A model generated the notes under the pieces. That model made no database searches. It was given only the letters and a program-made list of their open reading frames with translations, and was not told the DNA's origin. Position numbers and translations under genes: made by a program. 64,000 nucleotides of DNA from contig CAYUKU010000001.1 of NCBI GenBank assembly GCA_964445435.1, positions 44,384 through 108,383 on the forward strand, read 5' to 3'. Source of the DNA: an uncultured Gammaproteobacteria bacterium (GTDB taxonomy: Bacteria; Patescibacteriota; Microgenomatia; UBA10105; UBA927). This document shows positions 3,401 to 64,000 of the stretch, piece by piece; the stretch's first letter is position 1; every line of letters begins with the position of its first letter.

Positions 3401-3401
3401 G

Positions 3402-3473
3402 TGGGCCCGCTTGGTGACGATCCAAGCGCCCCCATGTTATAAGCATGGTGCTCTACCGCTGAGCTACGGGCCC
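3402..3473 (-). tRNA. tRNA with anticodon UAU (tRNA-Ile, AUA-reading), 72 nt
   Basis: The reverse complement folds as a canonical cloverleaf. Acceptor GGGCCCG/CGGGCCC, D-arm GCTC-AGCGGTA-GAGC, anticodon stem CCATG/CATGG with loop CTTATAA (T33, anticodon TAT, A37), 5-nt variable loop, T-arm CTTGG-ATCGTCA-CCAAG, discriminator A, no encoded CCA. Confidence 0.75.
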
Positions 3474-24392: not shown

Positions 24393-24995
24393 TTATCCTG
24401 AAACGAACCGTTTTTCGACCTCGTTCCAGTTCACGACATTCCACCATGCTCTAATGTAATCCGCCCGCATGTTTTGATACTTAAGGTAGTATGCGTGTTC
24501 CCAGACGTCCAATCCAAGAATGGGAGTCTTCCCTTCCATAACAGGACTATCCTGATTTGGCGTGTCCATGATGTCTAATTTTCCTCCTGATACTACAAGC
24601 CAAACCCATCCGCTTCCGAATCGTCCCATCCCGGCAGTACTAAACTTCTCCTGAAACCCCTGGATACTGCCAAACGTCGAACTTAGTGCATCTTTTAACG
24701 TACCTGCCGGTTCTTTTTGTGCATTCGGCGCCATCACCTGCCAGAAAAGGCTATGATTTGCGTGACCTCCGCCGTTATTTCGGACCTTAGTACGGACGGT
24801 TTCAGGAATCAGTGAAAGGTCAGCTATCAACTGCTCAACGGGCATGCGCAACAAATCTTCCTGACCCGCAAGGGCATCATTGAGATTTTTCACATACGCA
24901 GCATGGTGTTTTCCGTGATGAATCTGCATCGTGCGTTCGTCGATATACGGTTCAAGTGCATTTGCCGCATACGGCAATTCGGGAAGAGTAAACAT
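24393..24995 (-). CDS. sodA: Fe/Mn superoxide dismutase
   Basis: [31 protein letters not shown]...DVWEHAYYL canonical metal ligands. Confidence 0.9.
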
Positions 24996-25083
24996 ACGAA
25001 ACCTCCTTTGGGATAAACATTGTACGCTAGCCTACATTATTATATACCATGCAGAAAAGCCACCCGATCGGTATAATAGAGGG

Positions 25084-27315
25084 ATGTTCGCTTCACGCAT
25101 AAAATTAGCCGCACAGTGGGTGCAAAAAAAATTACCGAAAAAGCTTACCAACGGCAAACTGTCCAGGCGCCTCGGATATGCTTTTTGGCTTTTGCCTCTA
25201 TCCATCGTCATTTCCTCTTACCTTTTGATTCTGAAAGATCTCCCCTCTCCTACAAAACTCGGTAGGTATGATATACCGCTGGCAACGAAAATATACGACA
25301 GAAACGGTCAATTGTTGTTTGATATCTTTGCCGACGAAAACCGCACCGCCGTACCGCTTGCCGAAATTCCCGTGCACGTAAGACAGGCAACTATCGCCAT
25401 AGAAGATAAGGATTTCTATAAACACCAAGGCATTAATCCTGTCGGTGGCATACTGCGAGCCATCTCTTCAAGTATCACCCGAAAACGGCTTGAGGGCGGA
25501 TCGACCATTACCCAGCAACTCGTTAAATCAGCTCTCCTCACTCCGGAGCGCACTATCATCAGAAAGATTAAAGAAGCTATCCTGGCCATTTGGGTCGAAG
25601 CGCTCTATTCAAAAGATAAGATTCTCGAACTCTACCTCAACCAAGTGCCGTATGGAGGCACAGCGTGGGGAGTCGAATCTGCAGCGGAAAAATATTTCGG
25701 AAAATCAGTGCGGGACCTGACGTTGGCAGAGTCTGCGCTTCTTGCTGGTTTACCGCAAGCGCCCACCCGGTACTCACCGTTCGGCGCATACCCGGAATAT
25801 GCGAAAAACCGACAGCGAGAAGTCCTGCGAAGAATGACGGAAGACGGCTACATAACTCATGAACAAGCCGAAGAAGCGGATAGAGCAGAACTTGTTTATA
25901 AGAGAGAAGAGGGTATAAAAGCAGGACATTTCGTCATGTACGTCAAGCAACAACTGGTAGAAAAGTACGGTGAGGCACTCGTTGAACGCGGCGGGCTAAA
26001 AGTAACCACAACCCTCGACGCTAACCTGCAGGAGTATGCCCAGGCAACGGTCGCTGCAGAAATCGCAAAACTCTCCCGCCTTCGGGTTGGGAACGGAGCG
26101 GCTCTCATCACCAAGCCCTCAACCGGGGAAATACTCGCTATGGTTGGAAGTACAGATTATTTTGCGACTCCCTCCGGGAGCTATAACGTAACAACGGCGC
26201 TTCGGCAACCCGGTTCATCGATCAAACCCATTAATTACGCAATCGGCATTGAAAACAGAATCGTCACCCCCGGAACCGTATTCCTCGACATTCCGACCTG
26301 CTTTGGGGTTACCGGTCAACCTAACTATTGTCCCAAGAATTACGACGGAAAATTTCATGGCCCTGTTGCCCTTCGCATGGCACTTGGAAATTCGTTCAAT
26401 ATACCGGCAGTGAAAATGCTAAAACTTAATTCAGTCGAAACCATGATTGCCTCCGCATCGGCCTTCGGTCTGGATACGCTTCAAGACCCGAGTCGTTATG
26501 GCTTGTCCCTTGCCTTGGGAGGCGGTGAAGTACGCATGATCGACATGGCCGAAGCATTCGGAGTTTTTGCAAACGGCGGTATCAGGAAAGACCTTGTATC
26601 CATACTCAAGGTTGTCGATAAAAACGGAAAAACGCTTGACGAGTATTCTGACCCGAATCTCAATCGGGATATACCCTCTCAACTCCTGCTCCAGGGACCG
26701 AGAGTGGTTTCCCAAGAAACGGCATTTCTCATTTCCCACATACTCTTGGATAATAACGCGCGCATTCAAGCATTCGGACCGTCATCCGAACTCGTCATCC
26801 CGCAACATGCAGTTTCCGTTAAAACAGGAACGACAGACGATTTACGGGACAACTGGACCATCGGCTACACCCCACAATATCTCGTCGCCACCTGGGTAGG
26901 AAACAATGATAATTCCCCTATGAACCGTGCGCTCGTCTCCGGCGTTACCGGAGCCGCTCCTATTTGGAACAAATTAATGCGACGCGTTCTTCAGGGCGCC
27001 TCAGATATCTGGCCAAAACAGCCTGACGGGGTAGTCGGCGCACGCATATGCTCTCTCTCTGGTCTTCTGCCACCAAACGACGGGGATGATGCAGGATGTC
27101 CAATCCGATTTGAGTATTTTATAAAGGGTACCGTGCCCACACAACGGGAAGGCTTGAAACAATCGGTGTTGATCGATAAGGCAACGGGCGATATTGCCGC
27201 ACCCGGGAAAACCGATAATGTTGAACCACAGGAACATATCGTCCTGAAGGACGGCATTTCCACGTATTGTTTGGATTGTCCCCATCCCACCGAAAATCCG
27301 ACGCCCGCACCCTAA
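25084..27315 (+). CDS. class A penicillin-binding protein (PBP1A; GT51 transglycosylase + transpeptidase)
   Basis: TM anchor. GT51 motifs (IAIEDKDFYKHQGIN, RKRLEGGSTITQQL). Transpeptidase SxxK context (PGSSIKP) and KTGTT. The 5' ORF extension overlapping sodA is judged spurious. Confidence 0.85.
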   Translation: MFASRIKLAAQWVQKKLPKKLTNGKLSRRLGYAFWLLPLSIVISSYLLILKDLPSPTKLGRYDIPLATKIYDRNGQLLFDIFADENRTAVPLAEIPVHVRQATIAIEDKDFYKHQGINPVGGILRAISSSITRKRLEGGSTITQQLVKSALLTPERTIIRKIKEAILAIWVEALYSKDKILELYLNQVPYGGTAWGVESAAEKYFGKSVRDLTLAESALLAGLPQAPTRYSPFGAYPEYAKNRQREVLRRMTEDGYITHEQAEEADRAELVYKREEGIKAGHFVMYVKQQLVEKYGEALVERGGLKVTTTLDANLQEYAQATVAAEIAKLSRLRVGNGAALITKPSTGEILAMVGSTDYFATPSGSYNVTTALRQPGSSIKPINYAIGIENRIVTPGTVFLDIPTCFGVTGQPNYCPKNYDGKFHGPVALRMALGNSFNIPAVKMLKLNSVETMIASASAFGLDTLQDPSRYGLSLALGGGEVRMIDMAEAFGVFANGGIRKDLVSILKVVDKNGKTLDEYSDPNLNRDIPSQLLLQGPRVVSQETAFLISHILLDNNARIQAFGPSSELVIPQHAVSVKTGTTDDLRDNWTIGYTPQYLVATWVGNNDNSPMNRALVSGVTGAAPIWNKLMRRVLQGASDIWPKQPDGVVGARICSLSGLLPPNDGDDAGCPIRFEYFIKGTVPTQREGLKQSVLIDKATGDIAAPGKTDNVEPQEHIVLKDGISTYCLDCPHPTENPTPAP

Positions 27316-27371: not shown

Positions 27372-29705
27372 ATGGCGCGCCAAAATAACCCAAGCACTTC
27401 ACCTGACCCCCGCGGTAACATATTCGTACAGCTTCTCATAGGTATTCTTACCGTACTTATCGGAATCGGCCGTGTAGTTCAGTTCCCCTTTCGGTTGCCG
27501 TTTCTCCTTGCCAAACTCCTCAAACCTAAACGGAAGCCAGGCAGACCGAGGAAACACAAAAAATTTTCAGATACGTTTTCAAAAATTCAGCTGCCAAAAT
27601 TCCGCATTCCCCAAATGCTACGTGTCACAATTCCACGACTGCCTTCTTTGCACATTTCCTTTCCTAAGGTACCGCGAGTTGTATTGCCGCATGTATCAAT
27701 GCCCACCATTACCATCCTCCCGTCGAGCGAAGTGCTGGATCGGATTAAATTCTTTACTTCCGGGGTTGCGGTAACGATTATTTTCTTTTTTGCGCCATAC
27801 GTGACGTACTCATGGCTTCGGGCACTGCCGAATCCCGAACTGCTCTCAAAAAGGGATATCCAGGTCACCACAAAAATATTTGACCGGAATGGACTCCTTC
27901 TGTATGAAATCTACGCGGACCAGAACCGCACGCCCATTCCGCTTTCAGAAATTCCGGCGTACGTAAAAGAGGCGACAATCGCAATTGAAGACCAGGATTT
28001 CTACCGACACAACGGCATATCACTTCGGGGCATTATCCGCGCCGTGCGGGAGACGCTCCTCAATAACCAGATTCAGGGAGGTTCAACAATCACCCAGCAG
28101 CTTATCAAATCCGCGCTTCTTACGCCGGAAGTTAAACTCACCAGGAAAATAAAAGAAATTATCCTTGCCTTCTGGGCAGAACGGTTATACACCAAGAACC
28201 AAATTCTAGAAATGTATCTTAACCAGGTTCCGTATGGCGGCACTGCATGGGGTATCGAAGCTGCGAGTCAGACATATTTCAACAAGTCTGTGGTCGAATT
28301 AAGCCTCGCGGAAGCGGCACTTCTTGCCGGACTTCCTCAGGCTCCCACAGAATATTCCCCCTTTGGGAGCCATCCCCAAAAAGCATTTGAACGGCAAAAA
28401 GAAGTGTTGCGTCGCATGGTCGAAGACCGATATATAACAGTTAAAGAGGAAAGCGACGCGCTCAATACTCCAATCGTGTTTGCACAGCCCCGTACGTCTA
28501 TCAAAGCTCCGCATTTTGTCATGTACGTAAAAAATCTTCTCGAAAAAGAGTATGGACTACGACTTGTAGAGCAAGGCGGTCTTCGCATCACAACGTCACT
28601 TGATCTTTCACTTCAGGAAAAAGCAGAAGAAATTGTTGCAAGCCACATCAACAATCTCGCGGCACTTCAGGTAGGCAATGGAGCGGCACTCATAACAAAC
28701 CCAAAAACAGGGGAAATTCTCTCAATGGTCGGCAGTAAGAATTACTTTGATCTCGCAGGCGAGGGAAATGTGAACGTCACAACGAGCTTACGACAACCAG
28801 GTTCATCGATAAAAGTCATTACCTACGCAGCGGCATTGGAAAACGGATTTACGCCCGCTTCCATCATCGATGACTCACCCGTTATCTACCAAACACCCGG
28901 CAGTCCGCCGTATGTTCCGGTAAACTACGATGGAAGATTCCACGGACCTACACCTCTAAGGTATGCGCTTGCAAATTCATATAACATACCGGCCGTAAAA
29001 ATACTTGCAAAACTCGGAGTCCAAACCATGATCAATACAGGACGCCTTATGGGAATCACGTCGTGGTCTGATGAAAGCAGATACGGGCTCTCTCTCACTT
29101 TGGGAGGCGGGGATGTCACTATGCTGGAAATGGCACAAGTATACGGAACGCTTGCCAACGAAGGCAAACACGTTACGCTCATGCCTATTTTAGAAATCAC
29201 GGATTACACGGGTCGCGTTATCAAACGAAACAAACCCAAGGGAGCAACACAGGCAATCAAACCGGAAGTCGCCTGGCTTATAAGTAACATTCTTAGTGAC
29301 AATACGGCACGAATCGCGGCGTTTGGTCCGAACTCAAGTCTCGTCATCCCGGGTAAAACCGTTTCGGTGAAAACTGGCACGAGCAATGAGAAACGCGACA
29401 ACTGGACCATCGGATATACGCCGTCCTTTGTCGTATCGGTGTGGGTGGGAAATAACGACAATAGTCCGATGAACCCATATCTCACATCCGGTGTAACGGG
29501 AGCAGCTCCGATATGGCACGATCTTATGGTGGAACTCCTGAAGGATACACCCGATGAAATACCAAGCAAGCCCGATTCTGTTGTGTCCGTACCATGCTAC
29601 TTCGGCAGGCCAGAATACTTCATCTCGGGAACTCAACCCTCATCCGGTCGCTGCGCAGCAGTCCCAACCGCAACGCCAAGCGCCTCTGTTGCACCGCTTC
29701 GCTAG
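27372..29705 (+). CDS. class A penicillin-binding protein, second tandem paralog
   Basis: Same motif set (IAIEDQDFYRHNGIS, QGGSTITQQL, PGSSIKV, KTGTS). Unique Pro/Lys-rich N-terminal tail before the TM helix. Confidence 0.85.
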   Translation: MARQNNPSTSPDPRGNIFVQLLIGILTVLIGIGRVVQFPFRLPFLLAKLLKPKRKPGRPRKHKKFSDTFSKIQLPKFRIPQMLRVTIPRLPSLHISFPKVPRVVLPHVSMPTITILPSSEVLDRIKFFTSGVAVTIIFFFAPYVTYSWLRALPNPELLSKRDIQVTTKIFDRNGLLLYEIYADQNRTPIPLSEIPAYVKEATIAIEDQDFYRHNGISLRGIIRAVRETLLNNQIQGGSTITQQLIKSALLTPEVKLTRKIKEIILAFWAERLYTKNQILEMYLNQVPYGGTAWGIEAASQTYFNKSVVELSLAEAALLAGLPQAPTEYSPFGSHPQKAFERQKEVLRRMVEDRYITVKEESDALNTPIVFAQPRTSIKAPHFVMYVKNLLEKEYGLRLVEQGGLRITTSLDLSLQEKAEEIVASHINNLAALQVGNGAALITNPKTGEILSMVGSKNYFDLAGEGNVNVTTSLRQPGSSIKVITYAAALENGFTPASIIDDSPVIYQTPGSPPYVPVNYDGRFHGPTPLRYALANSYNIPAVKILAKLGVQTMINTGRLMGITSWSDESRYGLSLTLGGGDVTMLEMAQVYGTLANEGKHVTLMPILEITDYTGRVIKRNKPKGATQAIKPEVAWLISNILSDNTARIAAFGPNSSLVIPGKTVSVKTGTSNEKRDNWTIGYTPSFVVSVWVGNNDNSPMNPYLTSGVTGAAPIWHDLMVELLKDTPDEIPSKPDSVVSVPCYFGRPEYFISGTQPSSGRCAAVPTATPSASVAPLR

Positions 29706-53995: not shown

Positions 53996-54158
53996 ACTGT
54001 AATCTATATCACACTAAAGCAAGTAAATAAAACAGTTTTGTCCGAGAAACGGGAATTTTCCGACACATTGACTAGTGACTTACCTAGAATATCCAGAATT
54101 TACCACCAAAGAAATTAATCGATTTCTCAACTTTTAGTCAAAGCAAGATGCCAATCAT

Positions 54159-54486
54159 TATTGATTTTCATAGACTTTCTTACCGGCTTCTGTGATCAGT
54201 CCGAGTCTCAGTAATTCAGCATATCTTTTTTGTTCATCGCTGACCACTGACTGTTCTTTTTTCTGGGAGTAAACCGCACCATATAGGTTTCTTTATCAAT
54301 GCCTTTTTCCATGCTGTCTATCCAACCAAAGCACAAAGCCTCATCCAGTAGATTTTGAAAAGTGACAGTCTGCTTCCCGCTGGACTTCTTGTGTAAAGTT
54401 ACCCAAATCTCTTTTTCATTCTGGTGATACTATCGTAGCCAATGACGCCACTCGACTTGAGCTTGAGGGGAAATAGTGTTTGTCAT
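54159..54486 (-). pseudogene. YdeI/OmpD-associated-family gene remnant (at least 2 frameshifts)
   Basis: Minus-strand translation gives MTNTISPQAQVEWRHWLR* / QNEKEIWVTLHKKSSGKQTVTFQNLLDEALCFGWIDSMEKGIDKETYMVRFTPRKKNSQWSAMNKKDMLNY* / LRLGLITEAGKKVYENQ* in three different frames. No ORF of 60 aa or more in the track. Confidence 0.6.
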
Positions 54487-54543
54487 ATCATTAGTTTAAT
54501 GGGAAATTGCCCTTTTGCCTAATTTGCTTCATTCGAAAAATGG

Positions 54544-55013
54544 ATGAAAAATCTGTCAAAACTTGTTATTTCTATTGTTGGTTGTGAAGTAGTAGGAATT
54601 CTGGGGAGCGTATTTACGGTTTCCTCAATTTCCTCTTGGTACGCCACTTTAAATAAGCCCTTCTTTGCGCCACCGAACTGGATATTTGGGCCTGTTTGGA
54701 CACTCCTATATTTTCTAATGGGCGTAGCGTTTTATCTGATCTGGAAACAAGGTTGGAAGAAGAAAAAAGTTGCTACCGCCGGCAAATACTTTTTCGCACA
54801 ATTAGGGCTCAACTTTATCTGATCACCCGTTTTCTTTGGCTTACGATCGCCGCTATTGGCTCTATGTGTTATTATCGTCCTGTTGGCGCTGATCGTGATG
54901 ACAATCAAAAAATTTTATCCCCTGTCCAGATGGGCAGCCTACCTGCTTGTCCCATATCTTTTCTGGGTGAGCTTTGCTTCCGCACTGAACGCTGCCATCG
55001 CTATTCTTAATTG
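54544..55013 (+). pseudogene. tspO: TspO/MBR (tryptophan-rich sensory protein) gene interrupted by a single in-frame TGA at a conserved Trp position
   Basis: WYATLNKPFFAPPNWIFGPVWTLLY...LNFI-TGA-SPVFFGLRSP...AAYLLVPYLFWVSFASALNAAI is a full TspO in one frame. The TGA at 54820-54822 aligns with the conserved W of the LNxxWxPxFF motif. Confidence 0.65.
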
Positions 55014-55109
55014 ATCTTTGGCTCCACCTCATAGATATGTTCCGTAACCGCGTGATTGAGATAAGCATACCACTCGTCAATCTCAAAACACTGTTTGAAA
55101 CGTTTCACA

Positions 55110-55721
55110 TCACACCTGCGTTCGCTTGACCATGATGGTTGGAACACGAATAGTAAAACCACTTTCTTCCGGACTAATGTATATGGTTTCATATTTTTCC
55201 TGCAATTTCTCCCGAAGCTTTTCCAGATATACGTCTTTTTTTAGTTTTCTGCCTCCCGTCTGGTGTGCCCAAAAAAGAGCCATAGCATCGCTCCCGTCAC
55301 CTGCTTGTATCGTAAACGGCAGATGTATTTTTTGCGCGTATGCTTCTATCTCATGGATAAATGCCTGAACACTTTGGTTTTTCGCATGAAACAGTCTGTC
55401 CCTGTACATGAGTGAGAATGGATAATATCTCGTTATAAAACTCCAAAATCGGTCGTGGATAGTCATGATGACCAGAACAATTATTACCCGTATGCCTTTG
55501 TTAAAGTCCGAACGTCTTATTTCAACATTTCTTGGCACATGGACGAGCTTGTAAATATACCGAGCAAATGGTTTTGGCAAAAATAGGATAAGATATACAC
55601 CGAAAAGAAGGAGAAACAGAAAAAATAATCCTATCGTAATATGAAGTAATTCAAGGAATTTGAGAAACAGAAAAAACGCTACTACTGAACCCAAAACTAT
55701 ATACTGTGTTTTTACGCTCAT
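55110..55721 (-). CDS. membrane protein, unknown function
   Basis: Two N-terminal TM helices plus a soluble C-terminal domain. Confidence 0.4.
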   Translation of the reverse strand: MSVKTQYIVLGSVVAFFLFLKFLELLHITIGLFFLFLLLFGVYLILFLPKPFARYIYKLVHVPRNVEIRRSDFNKGIRVIIVLVIMTIHDRFWSFITRYYPFSLMYRDRLFHAKNQSVQAFIHEIEAYAQKIHLPFTIQAGDGSDAMALFWAHQTGGRKLKKDVYLEKLREKLQEKYETIYISPEESGFTIRVPTIMVKRTQV

Positions 55722-55992
55722 ACATCAGTTAACTTGTAATTCCCTTACCCGTATTTTTTTCACGTCGCCTATAATGGTGTTTTCATCATACTCCTGTGGA
55801 CGAACATTGATAATAAGACCGATATTTTCTGGCTCATGAAATAGCTCTTCTGCGTATCTAAATCTATGGCCAAATGCCGTTGAAAGAGATACGGGCTTAC
55901 CTGATTGTTAACCACCTTTAACCACCTTGGAGGTGAAATATTAGGTAGCCTATTAAGACAAAGTCAATCAGGTACTAAACCAAAGACAAAAC

Positions 55993-56148
55993 TTAAACCT
56001 TAACCTTAATAAGATCCCTAATACGACGTTCAACCACGCTCTTATACAAATATTGATACGCAGTCACTACATTTTCCATAAGTTGTTCTTTTTGTTCAGA
56101 AGTAGCCGTATCAAGATTTGTTGTAACACTAATTTTCCGTTTACTTCT
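55993..56148 (-). CDS. small ORF (about 52 aa) translationally coupled to the upstream nuclease gene
   Basis: MRSKRKISVTTNLDTATSEQKEQLMENVVTAYQYLYKSVVERRIRDLIKVKV. Its start overlaps the nuclease stop by 8 nt. Confidence 0.3.
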   Translation of the reverse strand, partial: RSKRKISVTTNLDTATSEQKEQLMENVVTAYQYLYKSVVERRIRDLIKVKV

Positions 56149-56896
56149 CATATTGCCTAACAGCACTGCGATATTTACAGAAGTCACAGTCTTCCCCTGA
56201 TTCAGGTATGCCGTCACTTTTCAAACATTCAATGGCTTTGAGAATAGTTCCCTCAACCCAATCTGTATTGCCTTTATAGGGAATGAGTTTGATATCAAAT
56301 TCCAATTTGGCGTCAAAGGCCTCTTTGTCGGTATTGCCATTGCAGTAGACGAAATAGCCAGTATCAGACACTTTGAAGCCGTTTTCTCTAAATAGCCATT
56401 GGTATATTTCCATCTGACGTTTGTATCCATCCTGCCACTCGGCATCTAGGGTTACTTCTTCATCTTTGGATGTAGCCTTGTAGTCAACCACGATATATTC
56501 TCTCGATGGCGTCACCCACATATCATCCACACCACCCGTGATAACAACGTTCGTGTTATCCACTCGGACAGTTATACCGCCCCGTAGTGAATCCCGCCAT
56601 TCGTCGATCTTTTCGTGGGCTAGTGGTATAGCGTCGATGCCGTACTTCTCCATTAATGGATGTCTGGTGCCTTTGGCCCGATGAATATCAAACTCTTTTT
56701 TCAGGAGTTTATCGACGGCAGAGTTAAGGGAAAAAGGGTATCCAGGCGGTTGGGCCACACCAAGTCTACGATCCAGATAAAAACAACGGGGACATGTAAT
56801 AAAATTGTTAATTTTTCCACGACTCAAACGAAACAACTCACTAGAGTTTGGATCGTAAATATTTCTTGTTCGGTTTGGATTGTAATACTGGCTCAT
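56141..56896 (-). CDS. Cas4/RecB-like PD-(D/E)xK nuclease with Cys cluster
   Basis: N-terminal CPRCFY and C-terminal C-x12-CDFC cysteines. Core D...VVDYKATSK (D-x-K) nuclease motif. Confidence 0.55.
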   Translation of the reverse strand: MSQYYNPNRTRNIYDPNSSELFRLSRGKINNFITCPRCFYLDRRLGVAQPPGYPFSLNSAVDKLLKKEFDIHRAKGTRHPLMEKYGIDAIPLAHEKIDEWRDSLRGGITVRVDNTNVVITGGVDDMWVTPSREYIVVDYKATSKDEEVTLDAEWQDGYKRQMEIYQWLFRENGFKVSDTGYFVYCNGNTDKEAFDAKLEFDIKLIPYKGNTDWVEGTILKAIECLKSDGIPESGEDCDFCKYRSAVRQYEK

Positions 56897-59379
56897 TGTT
56901 TGTTTACTTTATTACTTATGATTTTTTGCACCAATCGTAAATCCTCGTCGTTATAAAGCCTAAATCTCACAGATTGATACTGGTTATCTCGTACCAATAC
57001 TGAATCTGGATGTGACAACCCATTTTTTAATTGTTCTACTATTTCGGGGGTAGATGAGCCGAGTTCGCCATATACCCAATGATTTGCGTAATAGTAAAAC
57101 AACAACAATTCTTCACCCCGTTTAATACTGTGATACGAACCAGCTCCACCTTTTGAAATGTACACATCGCCGTCAGGGAACTCTTCATCAACCCACTGAG
57201 GAATAGACGTAACAGCTTTTTTGACAAATTCGTCTTTCACTCTGGCAATTGTTTCATCTTCTGTTTCTGGTGGTTTAGTTACGCTTACCTTAACCTCCTC
57301 CTCGTTATCGTCATCACCCTTTACGCCCCGCAACACCTGGGCAAACCATTCAATCGCCGCTTCCGCTTCTCGTTGCAATACAAAGTTAATTTCTTTGATG
57401 TGTTTAACCGCATTACGGAAATCTTTTAGAGTTATAAATCGTTTCTCTGTTTCGTACTTAGAGCCAAAGAATATTTCGAAGTGTTCCCAGTTTTTGAGAA
57501 TGATATTGGAATAATCCATGACGTCGCATTGACACAAACGATCATATGCATCCAGTTTCTCCTCAACAACATAGGGGTTCTTACGCAGGTATTCTGCTAG
57601 TTTTACTTTTACTTTCCCTTGAATATCTCCTGGCACTACCTGATTCCAATAATCTTTGCCAATTTTTTCGGACAATTGACTATTGATAAGTAAACGCAGT
57701 TTTAATTCAATGTCGTCTAAAGCTTTATTTGCATTTACGCCAAGGATCTGGATAATCTTTGATCCCGTTAGTCTTTCAAACTCTCGCTTGATAGCTTCTG
57801 CACGCTCTTTGATAAACAATTTATAGTTATCTTCTTTAATGGCATCACCGTAGTTGATTAAATGCGTTTCCAGTGTGTCATTAAATTCAGGATTTTCATT
57901 TTGATAATGGGCGAAATAATCGCTAGGTTTTTGATCTAATATTTCCTTATTCAATTCAGCAGGGATAAAGCAAAAGTTGGCTATTAAATTTTCCCCACCA
58001 ATCCTGTTTTTTGAGAGAAAACGCCTCGGGAAGATATGATGTTTTTCTGGACTATTAAAGCTTGAGTAGAAATGTCGATCCATTGGAATAAGTCCATTGG
58101 TTTTGAAATGCCTTGGGTTTCTACGGGCCAACATACAGAAGATAGCATTTCTAAGCGCAGATTTTGTACCAATTGTGGCAGTGGCAATCTTTTCCTCATC
58201 CGCCGTAATAGCAAAGTTTATCTTCACATCTTTGCCATTTAGGAGCTTATCGAATATTTCCCGACGATCTTCTCCCATCTTGCTTTCCATAGCTGCTGTG
58301 TATCGCTCGCTTAAAGATGATTTCCAAAACCACTCATGTACCACATCTGTCATCTCTTTACTTAATGCCCGCCCATCCGTCTTGAAATACAGATAGGCCA
58401 ATAGCGGAATGAATGACGGGTATGGAGTAAATTCAAAGATTTTAACCCCTAGATTGGCCGACAAATGCTCAACCGCCAACTCAATCGCATTAGCAATCTC
58501 ATTCCAATTCTCCTTTATTTCCTCTTTTTTTAGCTGTAATTGATATATCTTGCTACAAAACCCTTTGAGAATGAGCGAAATGGCGTGTGTAACTACTTCT
58601 GGGCTAATATCTCCAAAACCTTTCGATGCAATCCTTTCCCGCAATTGGTTGTAATTCTCCTTTAGATCAAAATCTTCACCCCATGTACTAGCTACCACCA
58701 AATCGAACAACGACAATTTCTTACCACCCTGGTTGATGCGTTCAAATATGACGCTAGCATTGTTGAGTTCGACGTTATAGACAGTTACCACACTAAGGGG
58801 GTAAGTGGTGAATATCCGATGACACTCCATGAACACTTCCTGCCGTTCGGGTGACAGTTTGCGAAACATCTGCATGTGATCTTCACCCAAGACTTTGTAT
58901 AGAGGAATATATCTATCGCTTTCCCGCTTCACCTCAAAGACTGATTGGTTGCCATTATCATCAGGCTCTTTTTTGTAGTAATCCAAGTCTAAGCAGATTT
59001 GCGAACAGTCAACCAATTTTGTTTTATTGCCATCCTTAAACTCAACCCGAACACCATGCCAGGCGGCATAGAGTGAACAAATACGTTGTTGGCCGTCTAG
59101 GATGAATTTCAATTTTTCATCCTCTCTTGGTTTAGGTGGTGTTATTCCAAGTTCAGGTAGATCCCGATAAAACAGATTGTATTTGCCCGTTGTTTCCCAA
59201 AGAAAAAAACTACCAATCGGATACTCTTTGTAAATGCTATCCAACAAGGCCACAATTTTGCTTCGTTCCCACACAAAGTCCCGTTGAAATCGGGGAACAC
59301 GAAGAGTTCCTTCTTTTAGGTAAGTAAGTAGGGAAATGATTTGTTTGTTTCCCTCTGATTCAATTTTTGGTAGCTTCAT
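56893..59379 (-). CDS. GmrSD-like DUF262 (ParB/Srx-fold, DGQQR) + DUF1524 (His-Me finger) protein with C-terminal HEPN-like and unknown domains
   Basis: N-terminus VPRFQRDFVWERSKIVALLDSIYKEYPIGSFFLWE ... ILDGQQR. Middle EKHHIFPRRFL...NLIANFCFIPAELNKEI (DUF1524). Later Rx4H motif FRNAVKHI. The final about 130 aa is aromatic-rich (LLLFYYYANHWVYGE). Confidence 0.65.
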   Translation of the reverse strand: MKLPKIESEGNKQIISLLTYLKEGTLRVPRFQRDFVWERSKIVALLDSIYKEYPIGSFFLWETTGKYNLFYRDLPELGITPPKPREDEKLKFILDGQQRICSLYAAWHGVRVEFKDGNKTKLVDCSQICLDLDYYKKEPDDNGNQSVFEVKRESDRYIPLYKVLGEDHMQMFRKLSPERQEVFMECHRIFTTYPLSVVTVYNVELNNASVIFERINQGGKKLSLFDLVVASTWGEDFDLKENYNQLRERIASKGFGDISPEVVTHAISLILKGFCSKIYQLQLKKEEIKENWNEIANAIELAVEHLSANLGVKIFEFTPYPSFIPLLAYLYFKTDGRALSKEMTDVVHEWFWKSSLSERYTAAMESKMGEDRREIFDKLLNGKDVKINFAITADEEKIATATIGTKSALRNAIFCMLARRNPRHFKTNGLIPMDRHFYSSFNSPEKHHIFPRRFLSKNRIGGENLIANFCFIPAELNKEILDQKPSDYFAHYQNENPEFNDTLETHLINYGDAIKEDNYKLFIKERAEAIKREFERLTGSKIIQILGVNANKALDDIELKLRLLINSQLSEKIGKDYWNQVVPGDIQGKVKVKLAEYLRKNPYVVEEKLDAYDRLCQCDVMDYSNIILKNWEHFEIFFGSKYETEKRFITLKDFRNAVKHIKEINFVLQREAEAAIEWFAQVLRGVKGDDDNEEEVKVSVTKPPETEDETIARVKDEFVKKAVTSIPQWVDEEFPDGDVYISKGGAGSYHSIKRGEELLLFYYYANHWVYGELGSSTPEIVEQLKNGLSHPDSVLVRDNQYQSVRFRLYNDEDLRLVQKIISNKVNKQ

Positions 59380-59382
59380 AAT

Positions 59383-62300
59383 TTATTTTTCTCCCGTCCA
59401 ATCTTTTGCTAATAACTCCGCCTGTTCCAATACAATCTTGGTAGCTCCATCCTGTTTGTCTGGCGGGTAGTTATATTTCTTGAGCAACCGCTTGATATAA
59501 ACCCGTAATTTAGCTTGAATGCTTTCCTTGATCGTCCAGTCGATAGTGGTATTTTTACGGAGCATATCCACCAGCTCCCGAGCCATTGCCTTAAGGGTTT
59601 CATCACCTAGTTCTCTAATTGCGCTTTCGTTATTAGAGAGTGCGTCATAAAATGCCACTTCTTCCTCGGTTAATCCCATGCCCTTGCCTTTGTCTTTTTC
59701 GTCTTTGATCTTCTTGGCTAGTTCTAGAAGTTCTGCGATTACCTGCGCCGCTTCAATCGTCCTGTTCTGGTACTTACGAATTGTTTCCGCGAGCATTGAG
59801 GCAAATGAACGAGATTTAACCAGATTTGTTCTGGCAAAAGTTCGGAGTTCATCGTTTAAGAGTCTTTTCAGAAGTTCCAAAGCTACGTTTTTGTGCTTCA
59901 TATTTTTCACTTCTTCCAAAAACTCCTCGGAAAATATCGAAATGTCAGGAGTCTTGATCCCAGCTGCAGAATAGATATCTATCACCGCGTCCGATGTCAC
60001 CGCCGAAGATACTATCTGTTTAATCGCTACGTCATACTCTTCATCAGTTGGCCCTCCGGAACGTGCTTCCATTTTCAGAATCGCGCCCCGTACAATCTGG
60101 AAAAATCCTACTTCATCTCTAATCTCAATTGCTTTCTCATGGGGAACGGCTAGTGAAAATGCCTTCGATAATTCTGATACCGCCGCAAGATACCGTTTTT
60201 TGCCATCAGGAAGCCCCAAGATAAAATCAGTTGCGCCAGAAATTGTTTGCGTGCGTAAAGAGGCAGCAGAGCTAAAGTAGTTTTGGTAGCCAAACCCGTG
60301 ATACATTCCCCGAACCACTTCGTATTTTTCGAGCATTACCGATACCGCCTCGTCTTGAGGAATAGCTGTTTCCTGTCTATCGGATTCCGAATAATAAGAT
60401 AGAGCCTCCTTTAATTCAGGCGCAATGCCGATGTAGTCAACGATAAGTCCGCCTTGTTTGTCCTTATAGACACGATTGACGCGAGCAATAGCTTGCATCA
60501 AACCATGCCCCTGCATGGGTTTGTCTATGTACATCGTATGCAAGGACGGCACGTCAAAACCCGTCAGCCACATATCCCGCACAATAACTAGTTTCAGGGA
60601 ATCGTCGGGATCTTTCATTCGTCTAGCCATTTCATCTAATGCATGTTTGGCCCGAATGTGGGGTTGATACTCCTCTGGATCAGCCGCCGATCCTGTCATC
60701 ACAACTTTCAAAAATCCTTTGTTGTCATCTCCCTCATGCCAGTTTGGCCGAAGTTTTATGATTGCGTTGTATAGTTCCACCGCAATCCTACGGCTCATCG
60801 CCACGATCATGCCTTTGCCATCAATGGCAGAGAGTCTATTTTCAAAATGATCCACCACGTCACGGGCAATAAGAGCAATGCGTTTTTCCGATCCCACCAT
60901 TGCCTCGAGCCTTGCCCACTTACTCTTCAATTTTTCCTTGCGCTCAACTTCTTCACCCTCGGTTAGTTCTTCAAATTCGGGATCAATCTTGGGCTGTTCT
61001 TCTTTCTTTAGTTCAATACGGGCTAGTCTGGCCTCGTAGTAGATCGGTACTGTGGCATGATCTTCAACCGCACGGGTAACATCGTATACATCGACATATT
61101 CACCAAATACCGCCCGTGTGTTTCGATCTGTCAGCTCGACAGGAGTGCCAGTAAAACCGATAAAGGAGGCATTGGGGAGAGCAGAGCGCATGTGTTTGGC
61201 AAAGCCATGAATAAATTCATACTGGCTCCGATGGGCTTCGTCGGCAATAACCACAATGTTTTTTCGATCAGACAGCATCGGATATTCCGTGTGTCCATTT
61301 TGAGGTAAGAATTTTTGAATAGTCGTAAATATCACCCCACCCGATGCCACCCGTAACAACTCTTGTAACTCTTCTCGGTTCTCTGCCTGTTTAGGAGTTT
61401 GCCGTAAGAGTTCATGACAACGAGAAAAGATGCCAAACAGTTGGTTGTCCAAGTCGTTGCGATCGGTTAAGACGACGAGAGTCGGGTTGTTGAGAGTTTG
61501 GATGATTTTACCCGCATAAAACGTCATGGTTAGGCTCTTTCCCGATCCTTGCGTATGCCAAACTACACCCGCTCGTCTGTCTCCCTCTTCCTGTGTCGCC
61601 TTAATCGTGCTTTCAATGGCCTTATTGGTAGCAAAATATTGGTGATACGCTGCCGCTTTTTTGATAGTATGCTCGCCATCGGTTTCAAAAACAATGAAGT
61701 TGGCGAGTAAGTCCAAGAGTCGGGTTTTATCAAAAATACCTTTTAAGAGTACCTCTAGCTGGGGTAGTGCATTGGAGGCTAGCTCTTTCCCATCTACAGT
61801 TCGCCAACGGGTAAACCATTCCAGGTTGGCCGAAAGCGTCCCCATGCGGGCCTCAATTCCGTCACTAATGATGGAAAGTTCGTTATAGGCAAACAGAGTG
61901 GGAATATCCCGTTTGTAGGTTTGGATTTGGTTAAAGGCATTTTTAACTGTGGCTTTTTCATCTCCTGGGTTTTTTAGTTCGATAACAACTACAGGTAACC
62001 CATTCACAAACACCACCACATCGGGCCGACGATTCACATTGTTTTCAATAATGGTGTATTGGTTAACAGCCAAAAAGTCGTTATTTGCAACGTCGCCAAA
62101 GTACACCAATCGTACTTTATCACCAGCTACAGTTCCATCAGAGCGCATATATTCCACATCCACACCATCCCGCAGATAGGAATGAAAGATTTTGTTATTG
62201 ATGATCAGATTCGGGGTAGTGTGGGCCACCTGCACCACTTTCTTAAACGCCTCTTCTTTAGCATCTTGGGGAATATTGGGATTTAGTTTTTCAATAGCCG

Positions 62301-62463
62301 TAAGCAATCTGTCCTCAAGTACCACGTCGCCATAACTAGCCCGTTCGGGATGTTCGCCATCGGGAGGTGGGGCAATCTCTGGGCCACCAATAACCGAATA
62401 ACCCAACCCCTCGAGCCATTCAAGTGTTGCTAGTTCTAGATCTGTTTCTGTGTATTTAGTCAT
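59383..62463 (-). CDS. hsdR: type I restriction enzyme R subunit
   Basis: 1026 aa. N-terminal nuclease domain. SF2 helicase motifs [24 protein letters not shown] and QAIARVNR. Confidence 0.9.
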
Positions 62464-62468
62464 ATTTA

Positions 62469-63623
62469 TTAAAATGATATTTTGTCATCATCCAATTCCA
62501 CTTCAAAGGAAGTTACAACTTTTGTATCGGCAGGTTGTACCTCTTCTGTAGAATTGTTAACGATAAATTTTGCCCTTTCAAATAATTCATCAAATGTAAT
62601 AATTTCAGGGTTAGATAAATTTCTCCTGTATAACTCAAAAGTCTTTTTCTTAGAATTGGAGTCCAACTGATTACAATGGCCGATTACCAATAATCCTTTT
62701 GGGCTGCATGTGGTAATACCGCCTAATTCTTCTCTGTTTTCGTCTGTTCTTGAACCCTCAGTTTCCCATTTATTTGCGTTAACTTGGAGCTGTGATACAC
62801 CACCAACTAATTCTTTTCCAATCTCCCATGCTCCATTTCTATATTCATCATTCCCGAGTAATGCAGTACTTGGTTTTTTGATTTCTACTAATACTGTAAA
62901 TCTGCCATCAGCGGCTGTATCCATCAGATAATCTCCACGTTGATTTCCTGAACCAAATACATTGCCTCCACCGTACTGAGGCTGGGATGTTATCAAATGA
63001 AGATATTGGTATTTCAACCCTAATCCGAAAATCCACTCATTGTTCTTGAAGAAATTTTGCCAATAGGCCTCGTCCTTATCTTCTGTTAATGAATTTTCAA
63101 ATTCTCTTAAGGCTGTTCCCCGTTCAGTTTGCACCCGAGAATATGCAAGCCGTGTGGCCAAGTGTGGCTCCTTTTGTACTAACTGTTCCCAAACCTCATT
63201 TCCGTAATCCTGCTCCAATAACTTGGTAACGAAACTCTTTCTCTTTTCATCAACCCTGATAATTTCGTCCTCCTTGGCCACGACATAGCTCTGTTCTAAC
63301 CAGGGTAATTCTTGCTTTGAAATGCGATATAGATTTACGAGTGCTTCAAACAAATTTTTTAATGCCAAGCTTTTAAGCTCAAATTTAATTCCCTCGTCTT
63401 TTTTTAATTCGTTGAGTTTTACCGAAGATAAATCTTGCCATTCATCATGCGCCCCTTTTCTTTGCACGATAATATACCCCTTAAGTGTGGCCTTAGGATC
63501 TTTCGGGTTGTCTTTAATGACAACTCCTCGAAAGACTTTTCTAAAGGTACCGCTTTCTTCAATAACAACATCGTCTGTTTTTGCAACATTGCTCGACACT
63601 CTGGTTAATTGATATTGCTGCAT
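62469..63623 (-). CDS. PD-(D/E)xK nuclease, Shedu/DUF4263-like, inserted between hsdS and hsdR
   Basis: GDYLMD...[10 protein letters not shown] (D231/D235 ... E247-x-K249). C-terminal [11 protein letters not shown]. No Walker motif, so not PrrC. Confidence 0.4.
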
Positions 63624-63624
63624 A

Positions 63625-64000
63625 CTAATTTTTCACTCTTAATTTCCCACTCATTAATCTTGGTAATAGAGAATCTCGCAGTGCGCCCAATTGTTCGTTC
63701 TCATCCATTTTTGCATTGATTTCTTGATATATGGCTCCGCATATCTGATTAAATCGATCTAGAATATCCTTACTCGGTGACAATACTGACATTTGTTTTA
63801 GATGTGTTGGCCCAAAATTTGCTTGCACACTACCTGCTGATAATCGTATTTGTTCACTTAAAAATTCTTCAGATTGTAAATACTGATACATAAAGGGATA
63901 ACTTACATTATCTTGGGGCCTAAATCGAATAACGCTCGTATTAAGTAAAAGTGGTAGATGTGATTTGCGCACAATTGCATTTTTACCTAAAGTTCCCGAT
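63625..64000 (-). CDS. hsdS: type I restriction enzyme S subunit (C-terminal part; gene continues beyond window end)
   Basis: C-terminal conserved helix EQLGALRDSLLPRLMSGKLRV typical of HsdS. The ORF is open at the window edge. Confidence 0.75.
   Translation of the reverse strand, partial: SGTLGKNAIVRKSHLPLLLNTSVIRFRPQDNVSYPFMYQYLQSEEFLSEQIRLSAGSVQANFGPTHLKQMSVLSPSKDILDRFNQICGAIYQEINAKMDENEQLGALRDSLLPRLMSGKLRVKN

What the first reader, a model, noticed from the sequence alone, without database searches (positions are those of the whole stretch)
56141..64000. Contiguous defense operon: hsdS, Shedu-like nuclease, hsdR, GmrSD-HEPN fusion, Cas4-like nuclease, small ORF
Six co-oriented genes with 0-5 nt gaps or overlaps form a single transcription unit. 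A type I R-M system (hsdS, hsdR) appears to have been expanded by three extra nuclease-type effectors. Stacking a Shedu-like, a GmrSD-like and a Cas4-like protein inside one R-M operon is, to my knowledge, not a described architecture. It would be a composite immune locus. hsdM is presumably just beyond the window.
Basis: partly seen in the sequence, partly recalled or inferred. Interest (0 to 1): 0.8.

Follow-up and report, generated by a model that had tools for sequence, protein, structure and literature searches.

The report
Type I restriction operon carrying extra defence genes
This is a real anti-phage locus in which a type I restriction-modification operon carries a Shedu nuclease, a GmrSD-like DUF262-HNH-HEPN enzyme and a Cas4-like nuclease as swappable gene-sized cassettes; this layout is already described in the literature, so it is a good example and not a new kind of system.

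Summary
Six co-oriented minus-strand genes (64000 to 55993) are separated by 1-5 nt or overlap. They are the hsdS 3' end, a Shedu SduA, hsdR, a DUF262-HNH-HEPN protein, a Cas4-like PDDEXK_1 nuclease and a 52-aa ORF. All domain calls were supported by Pfam/PADLOC/NCBIfam, conserved catalytic residues and two AlphaFold models.

The novelty claim does not hold. Shedu inside RM loci, GmrSD-like genes embedded in type I RM, and ParB(DUF262)+HNH+HEPN fusions are all published.

Surveys of about 190 related loci show the parts are independent modules:
- The hsdS-hsdR gap is a variable cargo slot, filled in 48 of 60 related operons.
- The DUF262-HEPN ORF is an exact gene-sized insertion between hsdR and the Cas4-like gene.
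- The same DUF262-HEPN gene (85-88% identical) also follows Hma-like, type III-like and other type I systems.
- The closest backbone (L188) reads hsdM-hsdS-Shedu-hsdR-CpXC-PDDEXK.

The least-described element is the Cas4-like gene. It recurs as the last gene of several unrelated defence operons, mostly in metagenome and Patescibacteria-MAG contigs.

The best reading is layered, probably co-transcribed, independently acting defences. hsdM lies outside the window.

The parts
63625..64000 (-). 3' end of hsdS, the type I specificity subunit (last 124 codons; the gene continues beyond the window)
   Evidence: PADLOC Specificity_I 2.7e-24, matching profile positions 324-437 of 446. The reading frame is open to the window edge. 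The conserved 3' end (63677..63621) is shared at DNA level with L088 and L188.
62469..63623 (-). sduA: Shedu nuclease, 384 aa, with SduA_N plus a DUF4263/SduA_C PD-(D/E)XK domain. It sits as embedded cargo between hsdS and hsdR.
   Evidence: Pfam SduA_C 4.8e-29 and SduA_N 5.6e-19, both above their cut-offs. PADLOC SduA 8e-78. Full-length match to the solved B. cereus SduA 8TI8, E 4.4e-35, with the D231 / E247-x-K249 triad aligned to the published motif II/III residues. Relative to L088 it is a gene-sized replacement.
59383..62463 (-). hsdR: type I restriction subunit, 1026 aa
   Evidence: TIGR00348 hsdR 2.8e-195, 650 bits against a cut-off of 284. Pfam HSDR_N, SWI2_SNF2, T1R_D3-like and T1RH-like_C. 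PADLOC REase_I 1155 bits. The PD..ELK, QxxxY, GSGKS and DEAH motifs are readable in the translation.
56893..59379 (-). GmrSD/BrxU-like four-domain protein, 828 aa: DUF262 (ParB/Srx NTPase, DGQQR), a helical linker, a His-Me/HNH-like motif (E445-K-H447-H448-I-F-P ... N468 ... N477), a HEPN domain (R655-x4-H660), and a YjbR/YdhG/MotA-CTD-like C-terminal domain
56141..56896 (-). Cas4-like RecB-family nuclease (PDDEXK_1), 251 aa, with CxxC...CxxC cysteines. It is the recurrent terminal gene of defence operons.
   Evidence: PDDEXK_1 1.7e-11. cas4 TIGR00372 scores 36.5 bits, below its cut-off of 65. The conserved residues C35/C38, D124/D125, D138-Y-K140, Q161-x3-Y165 and C237/C240 are invariant in 42 homologues. 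The AF2 model has pLDDT 81.5. Foldseek matches the AdnA nuclease, Cas4, Exo5, MGME1, ACE1 and AddB.
55993..56151 (-). Small gene, 52 aa, overlapping the Cas4-like stop codon by 11 nt. It belongs to a small-protein family of unknown function.
   Evidence: Eleven representative clusters at E<=1e-3 in a 1.84-billion-protein library, all 47-65 aa, sharing the motif TNLDxATPEQKExF..A..LY(K/R)SV(V/I)ER. It occupies the same position in L002, and differences between the two copies are concentrated at the third codon position (15/14/29). It is also present near PDDEXK in L085. No Pfam, NCBIfam or PHROG hit.

Best explanation
The locus is a layered anti-phage defence operon. [quoted passage not shown] Into this scaffold, independently mobile single-gene defence cassettes have been slotted at gene boundaries.

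How each part most likely works (function is inferred from family membership and was not tested here):
1. HsdM2S methylates the host target sequence. HsdR2M2S translocates along and cuts unmethylated invading DNA.
2. The Shedu SduA is a B. cereus-type PD-(D/E)XK nuclease with an N-terminal sensor domain. It acts as an autonomous second nuclease triggered by an infection cue. Published work on Shedu points to free DNA ends.
3. The DUF262-HNH-HEPN protein is a GmrSD/BrxU-like NTP-regulated type IV enzyme. It would attack modified phage DNA that escapes type I restriction. It also carries a HEPN RNase as a possible second (abortive) effector and a YjbR/MotA-CTD-like domain as a probable nucleic-acid-binding sensor.
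4. The Cas4-like nuclease, predicted to carry an Fe-S (or Zn) cluster, is a DNA-end-processing enzyme. It recurs as the last gene of many different defence operons.
5. The 52-aa gene is a real accessory of unknown role.

Tight spacing suggests co-transcription. Cassette turnover most likely occurs by recombination between the conserved flanking genes: the hsdS 3' end with the hsdR 5' end, and the hsdR 3' end with the PDDEXK 5' end.
For: Shown:
- Domain identities and intact catalytic motifs for all four nucleases.
- Fold-level confirmation for the DUF262-HEPN protein and the Cas4-like protein.
- Gaps of 1-5 nt or overlaps between genes.

Modularity:
- Among 80 loci encoding HsdR 53-93% identical to this one, 60 have hsdS upstream. 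Of those, 48 carry at least one gene between hsdS and hsdR, and 91 of the 99 such genes are co-oriented.
- That cargo is a mixed bag of defence families: AAA_15/AAA_21, ABC-3C components, RhuM, GmrSD_N, PIN, Mrr, HNH, AAA_13 and KAP.
- Shedu fills this slot in the window and in L008, L015, L098 and L188.
- DNA homology to L088, L085 and L182 stops at the hsdR stop codon (59375-59377) and resumes at the PDDEXK start (56887-56905). To L088 it also breaks exactly across Shedu.
- DUF262-HEPN genes 85-88% identical to this one follow an Hma-like system (L165, L003), a different type I family (L163, L004) and a type III-like system (L002).
- The closest backbone, L188, reads HTH_17-hsdM-2 small genes-hsdS-Shedu(80%)-hsdR(85%)-CpXC-PDDEXK.

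Literature precedent for embedding and for complementary RM plus type IV protection.
Against: - No function was tested. Anti-phage activity, modification dependence, RNase activity and co-transcription are all inferred.
- hsdM is not in the window, and the source contig could not be extended.
- Pfam's GmrSD_C/DUF1524 model hits none of 20 family members, so the HNH assignment rests on a motif and on the BrxU superposition.
- The window protein's HEPN_Swt1 score (17.7 bits) is below Pfam's cut-off of 27.5.
- The sigma-70 promoter and terminator scan was no better than shuffled sequence, so internal promoters, for example ahead of hsdR, cannot be excluded.
- The surveys were seeded on one component each. 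They rest on my own ORF calls and on MAG or short metagenome contigs, so the frequencies are rough.
Confidence: 0.8

Rival explanations
1. Integrated machine: the extra nucleases are added subunits or effectors of the type I enzyme and depend on it. The locus would then be a new multi-nuclease RM variant.
For: Operon-tight spacing. The same order, hsdS-Shedu-hsdR-DUF262HEPN-PDDEXK, recurs in a Shapirobacteria MAG, L008. The hsdR-DUF262HEPN junction recurs in L006/L089, L009, L015 and L090.
Against: Each extra gene is found without the others and without type I RM. The Shedu in L008 is only 37% identical to this one and lacks SduA_N, while its hsdR is 85% identical, which indicates independent acquisition. 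Most close HsdR relatives carry other cargo or none. Shedu and BrxU-type enzymes work as single genes according to the literature.
Confidence: 0.07
2. DUF262-HNH-HEPN plus the Cas4-like nuclease (with or without the 52-aa gene) form one two- or three-gene system whose parts need each other.
For: Among DUF262-HEPN homologues at least 56% identical and with informative flanks, 12 of 17 have this PDDEXK gene directly adjacent, in either order. The pair moves as one about 78%-identical DNA block into Hma-like and other type I contexts (window 59395..56159 against L163 and L165). The start and stop codons overlap by 4 nt.
Against: DUF262-HEPN occurs without PDDEXK in L003, L004, L015, L016 and L090. 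PDDEXK occurs without DUF262-HEPN behind hsdR, an Hma-like ATPase, UvrD, an RT, HARE-HTH and CpXC. More distant DUF262-HEPN homologues (49% identity or less) almost never have it. PADLOC has no paired model: protein 5 hits only Cas4 models.
Confidence: 0.3
3. The Cas4-like gene belongs to the RM/Hma scaffold as a generic tail component, for example to degrade or process restricted DNA. DUF262-HEPN is then simply embedded between hsdR and that tail.
For: PDDEXK follows hsdR directly in L088. It follows hsdR with one small gene between in L085, L182-187 and L188-192. It overlaps the stop of the Hma-like ATPase in L176-181. Hudaiberdiev et al. noted solo-Cas4 next to RM genes in small-genome lineages.
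Against: It also follows UvrD and a reverse transcriptase with no RM genes shown. Most sampled HsdR relatives lack it: only 2 of 61 downstream genes are PDDEXK_1. No biochemical link is known.
Confidence: 0.35
4. The neighbours are not defence genes but repair, housekeeping or mobile-element genes that sit next to an RM system by chance.
For: A 45%-identical PDDEXK homologue sits among helicase and nucleotide-kinase genes on a Flagellatimonas plasmid. Cas4-family nucleases also act in repair.
Against: Shedu and GmrSD-like families are experimentally validated defences. Every sampled context of the closer PDDEXK relatives is a defence-type operon. There are no phage hits by tblastn.
Confidence: 0.03

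Closest known systems
Defence genes embedded in type I RM operons ('guilt-by-embedding', Payne et al. bioRxiv 10.1101/2024.01.29.577857; classical example PrrC)
   Same: Co-oriented cargo lies between core RM genes. GmrSD-like proteins are stated to be frequent cargo of Hma and type I RM systems. The window's DUF262 protein hits PADLOC HEC-05 (3.7e-41) and PDC models derived from that study.
   Different: Here one cargo gene (Shedu) lies between hsdS and hsdR. Two more genes lie after hsdR, outside the strict 'between core genes' definition, unless the Cas4-like gene is counted as part of the scaffold.
[quoted passage not shown]
   Same: A DUF262-family type IV-like restriction module sits inside a type I RM cluster. 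It was shown experimentally to restrict phages with modified cytosines.
   Different: TgvAB is two proteins (DUF262, and DUF262+DUF1524) placed between the RM genes. The window has one protein with an added HEPN domain and a YjbR-like domain, placed after hsdR. No sequence-level relationship to TgvAB was tested.
BrxU / GmrSD (PDB 7P9K) and SspE
   Different: About 18% identity. Pfam GmrSD_C is not detected. The motif is HHIFP where BrxU has DHIYP. There are about 280 extra C-terminal residues forming the HEPN and YjbR/MotA-CTD-like domains.
ParB(DUF262)+HNH+HEPN fusions of the Swt1-like HEPN family (example VNG7073; Anantharaman et al. 2013, PMC3710099)
   Same: The same three-domain logic with an active Rx4-6H motif. 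A 33%-identical homologue covering residues 18-683 lies on Halobacterium pNRC100/200.
   Different: I did not verify that the pNRC100 ORF is VNG7073 itself. The window clade adds the C-terminal YjbR-like domain. That architecture has only been predicted and has not been characterised.
Bacillus cereus Shedu SduA (PDB 8TI8; Gu et al.)
   Same: Full-length homology (residues 10-355 against 13-377, E 4.4e-35), SduA_N plus SduA_C, and a conserved D/E-x-K triad. Gu et al. report 602 Shedu genes inside RM loci.
   Different: The two sequences are divergent: the match is E 4.4e-35 at 124.7 bits, and I did not compute a percent identity. Oligomeric state and trigger are untested.
Solo-Cas4 / Cas4-like pfam12705 nucleases (Hudaiberdiev et al. 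2017, PMC5704561)
   Same: A RecB-family fold with four cysteines, not CRISPR-associated. Solo-Cas4 is reported as over-represented in small-genome lineages and sometimes adjacent to RM genes or UvrD helicases. Structural matches include Cas4, AdnA, AddB and Exo5.
   Different: It fails the Cas4 equivalog cut-off (36.5 against 65 bits). The cysteine pattern is CxxC...CxxC, whereas my recollection of the Cas4 pattern is C...Cx2Cx5C. Its recurrent position as the last gene of at least five operon types was not found in the papers read here.

Membership tests
Type I restriction-modification system | HsdR with an N-terminal PD-(D/E)XK nuclease, an SF2 helicase motor and a C-terminal helical domain | tested here: met
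   TIGR00348 scores 650.7 bits against a cut-off of 284.55. Pfam finds HSDR_N, SWI2_SNF2, T1R_D3-like and T1RH-like_C. The motifs are readable in the translation.
Type I restriction-modification system | HsdS specificity subunit | tested here: met
   Only the last 124 residues are in the window. PADLOC Specificity_I 2.7e-24. Pfam Methylase_S was not hit by this fragment.
Type I restriction-modification system | HsdM methyltransferase in the same operon | not testable with these tools
   It lies outside the window, and exact look-ups did not return the long source contig. In related loci (L006, L008, L009, L015, L188 and 50+ metagenome loci), hsdM precedes hsdS.
Shedu (SduA) | DUF4263/SduA_C nuclease domain above the family threshold, with a D...E-x-K active site | tested here: met
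   SduA_C scores 102 bits against a cut-off of 27. D231, E247 and K249 align with B. cereus SduA motif residues (numbering).
Shedu (SduA) | Acts as a single-gene, autonomous anti-phage system | not testable with these tools
   Indirect evidence only. Homologues occur in different contexts (L013, next to PDDEXK and DUF262-HEPN; L015, after an AAA_15 gene). Literature.
GmrSD / BrxU type IV restriction enzymes | N-terminal DUF262 with the DGQQR NTPase motif | tested here: met
   GmrSD_N scores 101.6 bits against a cut-off of 33.2. D95-G-Q-Q-R99 is invariant in 78 sequences.
GmrSD / BrxU type IV restriction enzymes | C-terminal DUF1524 (GmrSD_C) His-Me finger nuclease | tested here: inconclusive
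   The Pfam GmrSD_C model hits 0 of 20 family members. However, E445, H447, H448, N468 and N477 are invariant, and the BrxU alignment spans the region (domain 2, 69).
GmrSD / BrxU type IV restriction enzymes | Cleaves modified (for example glucosyl-hmC) DNA | not testable with these tools
   Needs phage assays or biochemistry.
HEPN superfamily (Swt1/Abi2-like) | All-alpha HEPN fold with an Rx4-6H motif | tested here: met
HEPN superfamily (Swt1/Abi2-like) | Pfam HEPN_Swt1 at or above the gathering score | tested here: not met
   The window protein scores 17.7 bits against a cut-off of 27.5. Twelve of 20 relatives hit at E<=0.01, with a best E of 6e-5.
Cas4 (CRISPR-associated, TIGR00372/COG1468) | Score at or above the equivalog cut-off | tested here: not met
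   36.5 bits against a cut-off of 65.
Cas4 (CRISPR-associated, TIGR00372/COG1468) | Association with a CRISPR array or cas1/cas2 | tested here: not met
   There are no CRISPR-like direct repeats anywhere in the 64-kb window. The neighbours are RM and defence genes.
Cas4/AddB/Exo5-type RecB-family nucleases (PDDEXK_1) | RecB motifs (D, D/E-x-K, QxxxY) plus four cluster-binding cysteines, and a Cas4-like fold | tested here: met
   PDDEXK_1 scores 45 bits against a cut-off of 22. D124/D125, D138-Y-K140, Q161..Y165, C35, C38, C237 and C240 are invariant in 42 sequences. Foldseek matches AdnA, Cas4, Exo5 and AddB at probability 1.0. Whether the cysteines bind Fe-S or Zn is not testable here.
Embedded defence cargo (guilt-by-embedding pattern) | Cargo between core genes of a multi-gene system, on the same strand, and also found outside that system | tested here: met
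   Shedu lies between hsdS and hsdR. 91 of 99 cargo genes in related operons are co-oriented. The same families occur elsewhere.

The most novel reading that the evidence does not exclude
The 251-aa Cas4-like nuclease may be a portable, shared 'tail' module. It has more than 120 clusters at 78-93% identity among its listed homologues, and the contigs that carry a taxon label are mostly Patescibacteria MAGs. Several unrelated defence operons (type I RM, Hma-like, UvrD, reverse transcriptase, DUF262-HNH-HEPN) appear to plug into it. It could act as a common DNA-end-processing or degradation step downstream of different sensors, or as the conserved anchor that lets gene-sized defence cassettes be exchanged by homologous recombination. 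In that reading the DUF262-HNH-HEPN-YjbR protein with this nuclease and the 52-aa protein would be an uncharacterised multi-gene system.
Probability: 0.25. Interest if true: 0.65.

Novelty: new member of a known kind. Interest (0 to 1): 0.4.

Why it matters
The locus is a clear natural example of how defence islands are built. A type I RM operon acts as a scaffold with at least two insertion slots where single-gene defences are swapped exactly at gene boundaries. It is likely to combine restriction of unmodified DNA (type I), of modified DNA (GmrSD-like) and a trigger-dependent nuclease (Shedu), which fits the published idea of complementary layers.

Two pieces would repay experiments. The first is the untested DUF262-HNH-HEPN-YjbR architecture, which would be a DNase plus an RNase in one type IV-like enzyme. 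The second is the Cas4-like gene that closes many different defence operons, mostly on metagenome and Patescibacteria-MAG contigs; published work reports solo-Cas4 as over-represented in small-genome lineages, where its role is unknown. The general phenomenon is already published, so the finding refines existing knowledge and does not overturn it.

Tried and rejected
- Extending the contig to find hsdM failed. Exact look-ups of Shedu and HsdR were not on record. Look-ups of DUF262-HEPN and PDDEXK returned only an 8.4-kb Logan contig that ends inside Shedu. The 248-kb NCBI contig listed was not retrievable.
- Megablast of the locus against plasmids found no match. tblastn of the Cas4-like protein against phages found none.
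- The promoter/terminator scan gave counts at or near shuffled expectation and nothing usable.
- Repeat search around the locus found only short chance pairs, with no att-like or IS-like boundaries. Rfam found nothing. There is no CRISPR array.
Housekeeping genes show only that the window is chromosomal.
- An iterated HMM for the 52-aa ORF drifted to other small ORFs on the opposite strand. It was replaced by the exhaustive library search and a family HMM.
- I considered PrrC/RloC-type anticodon nucleases as the embedded gene. This was rejected for the window, since the cargo is Shedu. An AAA_13 protein does fill the slot in L009.
- I considered whether the 92-aa gene seen before PDDEXK in L002 and L085 is a remnant of the DUF262-HEPN C-terminus. 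There is no evidence for this and it has no family hit.

Full report
**Observation**

The stretch 64000 to 55993 carries six co-oriented genes on the minus strand:
- the hsdS 3' fragment (64000..63625)
- a 384-aa gene (63623..62469)
- a 1026-aa gene (62463..59383)
- an 828-aa gene (59379..56893)
- a 251-aa gene (56896..56141)
- a 52-aa ORF (56151..55993)

The junctions are 1, 5 and 3 nt gaps followed by 4- and 11-nt overlaps. An independent Logan assembly reproduces 8,421 nt of the locus with a single mismatch.

**What the genes are**

- The hsdS fragment matches type I specificity models (2.7e-24).
- The 384-aa protein is a Shedu SduA. It has SduA_N and SduA_C above threshold and a PADLOC SduA hit of 8e-78. 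It is homologous over its full length to the solved B. cereus SduA (8TI8, E 4.4e-35), and the D231/E247/K249 triad is conserved.
- The 1026-aa protein is HsdR (TIGR00348, 650 bits).
- The 828-aa protein has a DUF262/GmrSD_N domain (8e-29) and hits PADLOC HEC-05 (the BrxU family) at 3.7e-41.
  - Across 78 homologues the invariant residues are DGQQR, an E-K-H-H-I-F-P...N...N His-Me-like motif, and R655-x4-H660.
  - Pfam's HEPN_Swt1 is below cut-off for this protein but hits 12 of 20 relatives. GmrSD_C is never hit.
- The 251-aa protein is a PDDEXK_1 nuclease. It scores 36.5 bits against the Cas4 equivalog, below the cut-off of 65. It has invariant RecB motifs and CxxC...CxxC cysteines. Its model (pLDDT 81.5) matches AdnA, Cas4, Exo5, MGME1, ACE1 and AddB nucleases. 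The window has no CRISPR array.
- The 52-aa ORF has no family hit but belongs to a small-protein family. Eleven representative clusters match it, all 47-65 aa, with the motif TNLDxATPEQKExF. It occupies the same position in L002, where differences between the two copies are biased to the third codon position.

**Are the parts one system or several?**

*Survey seeded on DUF262-HEPN* (80 genome loci; own ORF calls and BLAST/HMM)

Several related operons share an HsdR that is 73-88% identical to the window's and is followed by DUF262-HEPN, but the gene between hsdS and hsdR differs in each:
- Shedu in L008
- DUF6602, a 141-aa gene, a Schlafen/AlbA_2 gene and a 243-aa gene in L006
- an AAA_13 ATPase in L009
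- AAA_15 plus Shedu in L015

*Survey seeded on HsdR* (80 metagenome loci)
- 48 of the 60 operons with a recognisable hsdS carry cargo in that gap, and 91 of 99 cargo genes are co-oriented. In 42 of 80 loci, co-oriented genes sit directly after hsdR.
- A Pfam census of that cargo is dominated by defence-type families: AAA_15/21, ABC-3C parts, RhuM, GmrSD_N, PIN, Mrr, HNH, AAA_13, KAP, UvrD and OLD-like.

*Contexts of the closest DUF262-HEPN genes*

DUF262-HEPN genes 85-88% identical to the window's follow quite different systems:
- an Hma-like helicase/methylase/ATPase set (L165, L003)
- a different type I family with YgjP and an OLD-family gene (L004), or with YgjP and an unannotated 770-aa gene (L163)
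- a type III-like set (L002)

*DNA-level comparison*
- Homology to L088, L085 and L182 ends at the hsdR stop (59375-59377) and resumes at the PDDEXK start (56887-56905).
- Homology to L088 also breaks exactly across Shedu.
- Homology to L163 and L165 covers DUF262-HEPN plus PDDEXK as one block.

*Closest overall backbone*

This was found through the nearest Shedu (80% identical). L188 reads HTH_17-hsdM-two small genes-hsdS-Shedu-hsdR(85%)-CpXC-PDDEXK. The slot after hsdR is therefore variable as well.

**The Cas4-like gene**

Its family is large. The search returned 8,000 hits at its cap, and more than 120 listed clusters are 78-93% identical to the window protein. In every context sampled it is at or near the end of a defence-type operon:
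- after UvrD, followed by Trypsin_2
- after a reverse transcriptase
- overlapping the stop of an Hma-like ATPase
- after hsdR plus a HARE-HTH protein
- directly after hsdR

The pairing is asymmetric. Seen from DUF262-HEPN, in the clade at least 56% identical, this gene is a frequent neighbour (12 of 17 informative loci). Seen from the Cas4-like gene, DUF262-HEPN is only one of many partners. Functional coupling is therefore possible but unproven.

**Mechanism**

The best-supported reading is a layered, probably co-transcribed set of independently acting defences on a type I RM scaffold.
- Type I restriction acts on unmethylated DNA.
- The GmrSD/BrxU-like enzyme probably aims at modified DNA. 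It carries an extra HEPN RNase and a YjbR/MotA-CTD-like sensor domain.
- Shedu acts as a trigger-dependent nuclease.
- The Cas4-like enzyme processes DNA ends.

What is shown: domain and fold identities, conserved catalytic residues, gene order, and cassette-level modularity. What is inferred: all activities, triggers, synergy and co-transcription. The promoter and terminator scans were uninformative.

**Comparison with what is known**

Each element of the architecture has precedent:
- 602 of 5,499 Shedu genes lie within RM loci, including type I.
[quoted passage not shown] - ParB(DUF262)+HNH+HEPN fusions were listed in 2013, and a 33%-identical homologue lies on Halobacterium pNRC100.
- Solo-Cas4 has been reported as enriched in small-genome lineages and sometimes adjacent to RM genes.

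The locus is a new member of a known kind. The parts that remain uncharacterised are the DUF262-HNH-HEPN-YjbR protein, the recurring Cas4-like tail gene and the 52-aa protein.

**Caveats**
- hsdM is outside the window and the long source contig could not be fetched.
- Each survey was seeded on one component and relies on MAG or short contigs and on my own ORF calls.
- The Pfam census shows only the top 25 families.
- The organism was not identified. Housekeeping genes show that the window is chromosomal, and most relatives of the locus come from Patescibacteria MAGs.

**Verdict**

The most novel reading that remains open is that the Cas4-like gene is a shared portable tail module for multiple defence operons (probability about 0.25).

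Noticed in passing
window 60890 (inside hsdR, codon 525): An independent Logan assembly of the same locus (L001, SRR10095373) differs from the window at one base only. That change turns Ser525 (TCG) into a stop (TAG) and splits hsdR into 524 + 490 aa. It could be population-level inactivation of the restriction subunit or a read error.
   Followed up: partly
window 55993-56151 (-); also L002 13381-13536 and L085 4955-5140: The 52-aa ORF belongs to a small-protein family (47-65 aa, motif TNLDxATPEQKExF..LY(K/R)SV(V/I)ER) with 11 representative clusters in a 1.84-billion-protein library. Weaker copies lie on the opposite strand 2-7 kb from DUF262-HEPN in L003, L004, L013 and L028.
   Followed up: partly
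L168, L170-175, L176-181, L182-187, L188-192, L085, L088, L151: The 251-aa Cas4-like nuclease (61-91% identical across these loci) is at or near the end of at least five unrelated operon types: UvrD, reverse transcriptase, Hma-like, type I RM with HARE-HTH or CpXC, and DUF262-HEPN. It is often followed by a Trypsin_2 gene.
   Followed up: partly
L003, L004, L013 (downstream of position about 14000): Three Patescibacteria-type MAG loci share the same downstream chromosomal genes (a gene of about 522 aa on the + strand and one of about 905-927 aa on the - strand). They carry different defence cargo upstream, which suggests a conserved defence-island hotspot.
   Followed up: no
cassette junctions, e.g. 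window 59395-59377 and 56905-56894; L003, L004, L006, L085, L088, L090, L168: Many cassette boundaries read '...AAATAA(A/T)T|ATG', that is, a TAA stop, 2-3 nt, then ATG in an A-rich context. This could be plain translational coupling in AT-rich genes or a recurrent recombination joint.
   Followed up: no
window 54100-55100: Just beyond the locus there are apparent gene remnants. One is a 92-aa TspO_MBR-type ORF at 54544..54822 (+). The other is a frame-broken YdeI/OmdA-like reading on the minus strand near 54440..54160. Next comes a 203-aa predicted membrane protein with no family (55721..55110, -).
   Followed up: no
window 55000-59500 and 62000-64000: GC content drops to 0.38-0.42 over the cargo genes (Shedu, DUF262-HEPN, the Cas4-like gene). 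hsdR sits at 0.44-0.47 and the neighbouring chromosome at 0.45-0.51. This is consistent with separately acquired cassettes.
   Followed up: no
window 24931-27315 and 27372-29705 (+); 5689-8037 (-); 3401-3473 (-): The window contains two tandem PBP1A-family genes, a protein with a weak TraD-like coupling-protein match next to nrdJ, and a tRNA-Ile with anticodon TAT.
   Followed up: no
P0083, P0086, P0099, P0115 and others (one search list): More distant DUF262-HEPN homologues carry other annotated extra domains where the window protein has the YjbR-like C-terminal domain: DUF4357 (PF14267), DUF5655 (PF18899) or DUF4268 (PF14088). This suggests a variable sensor module; the position of these domains within the proteins was not checked.
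   Followed up: no
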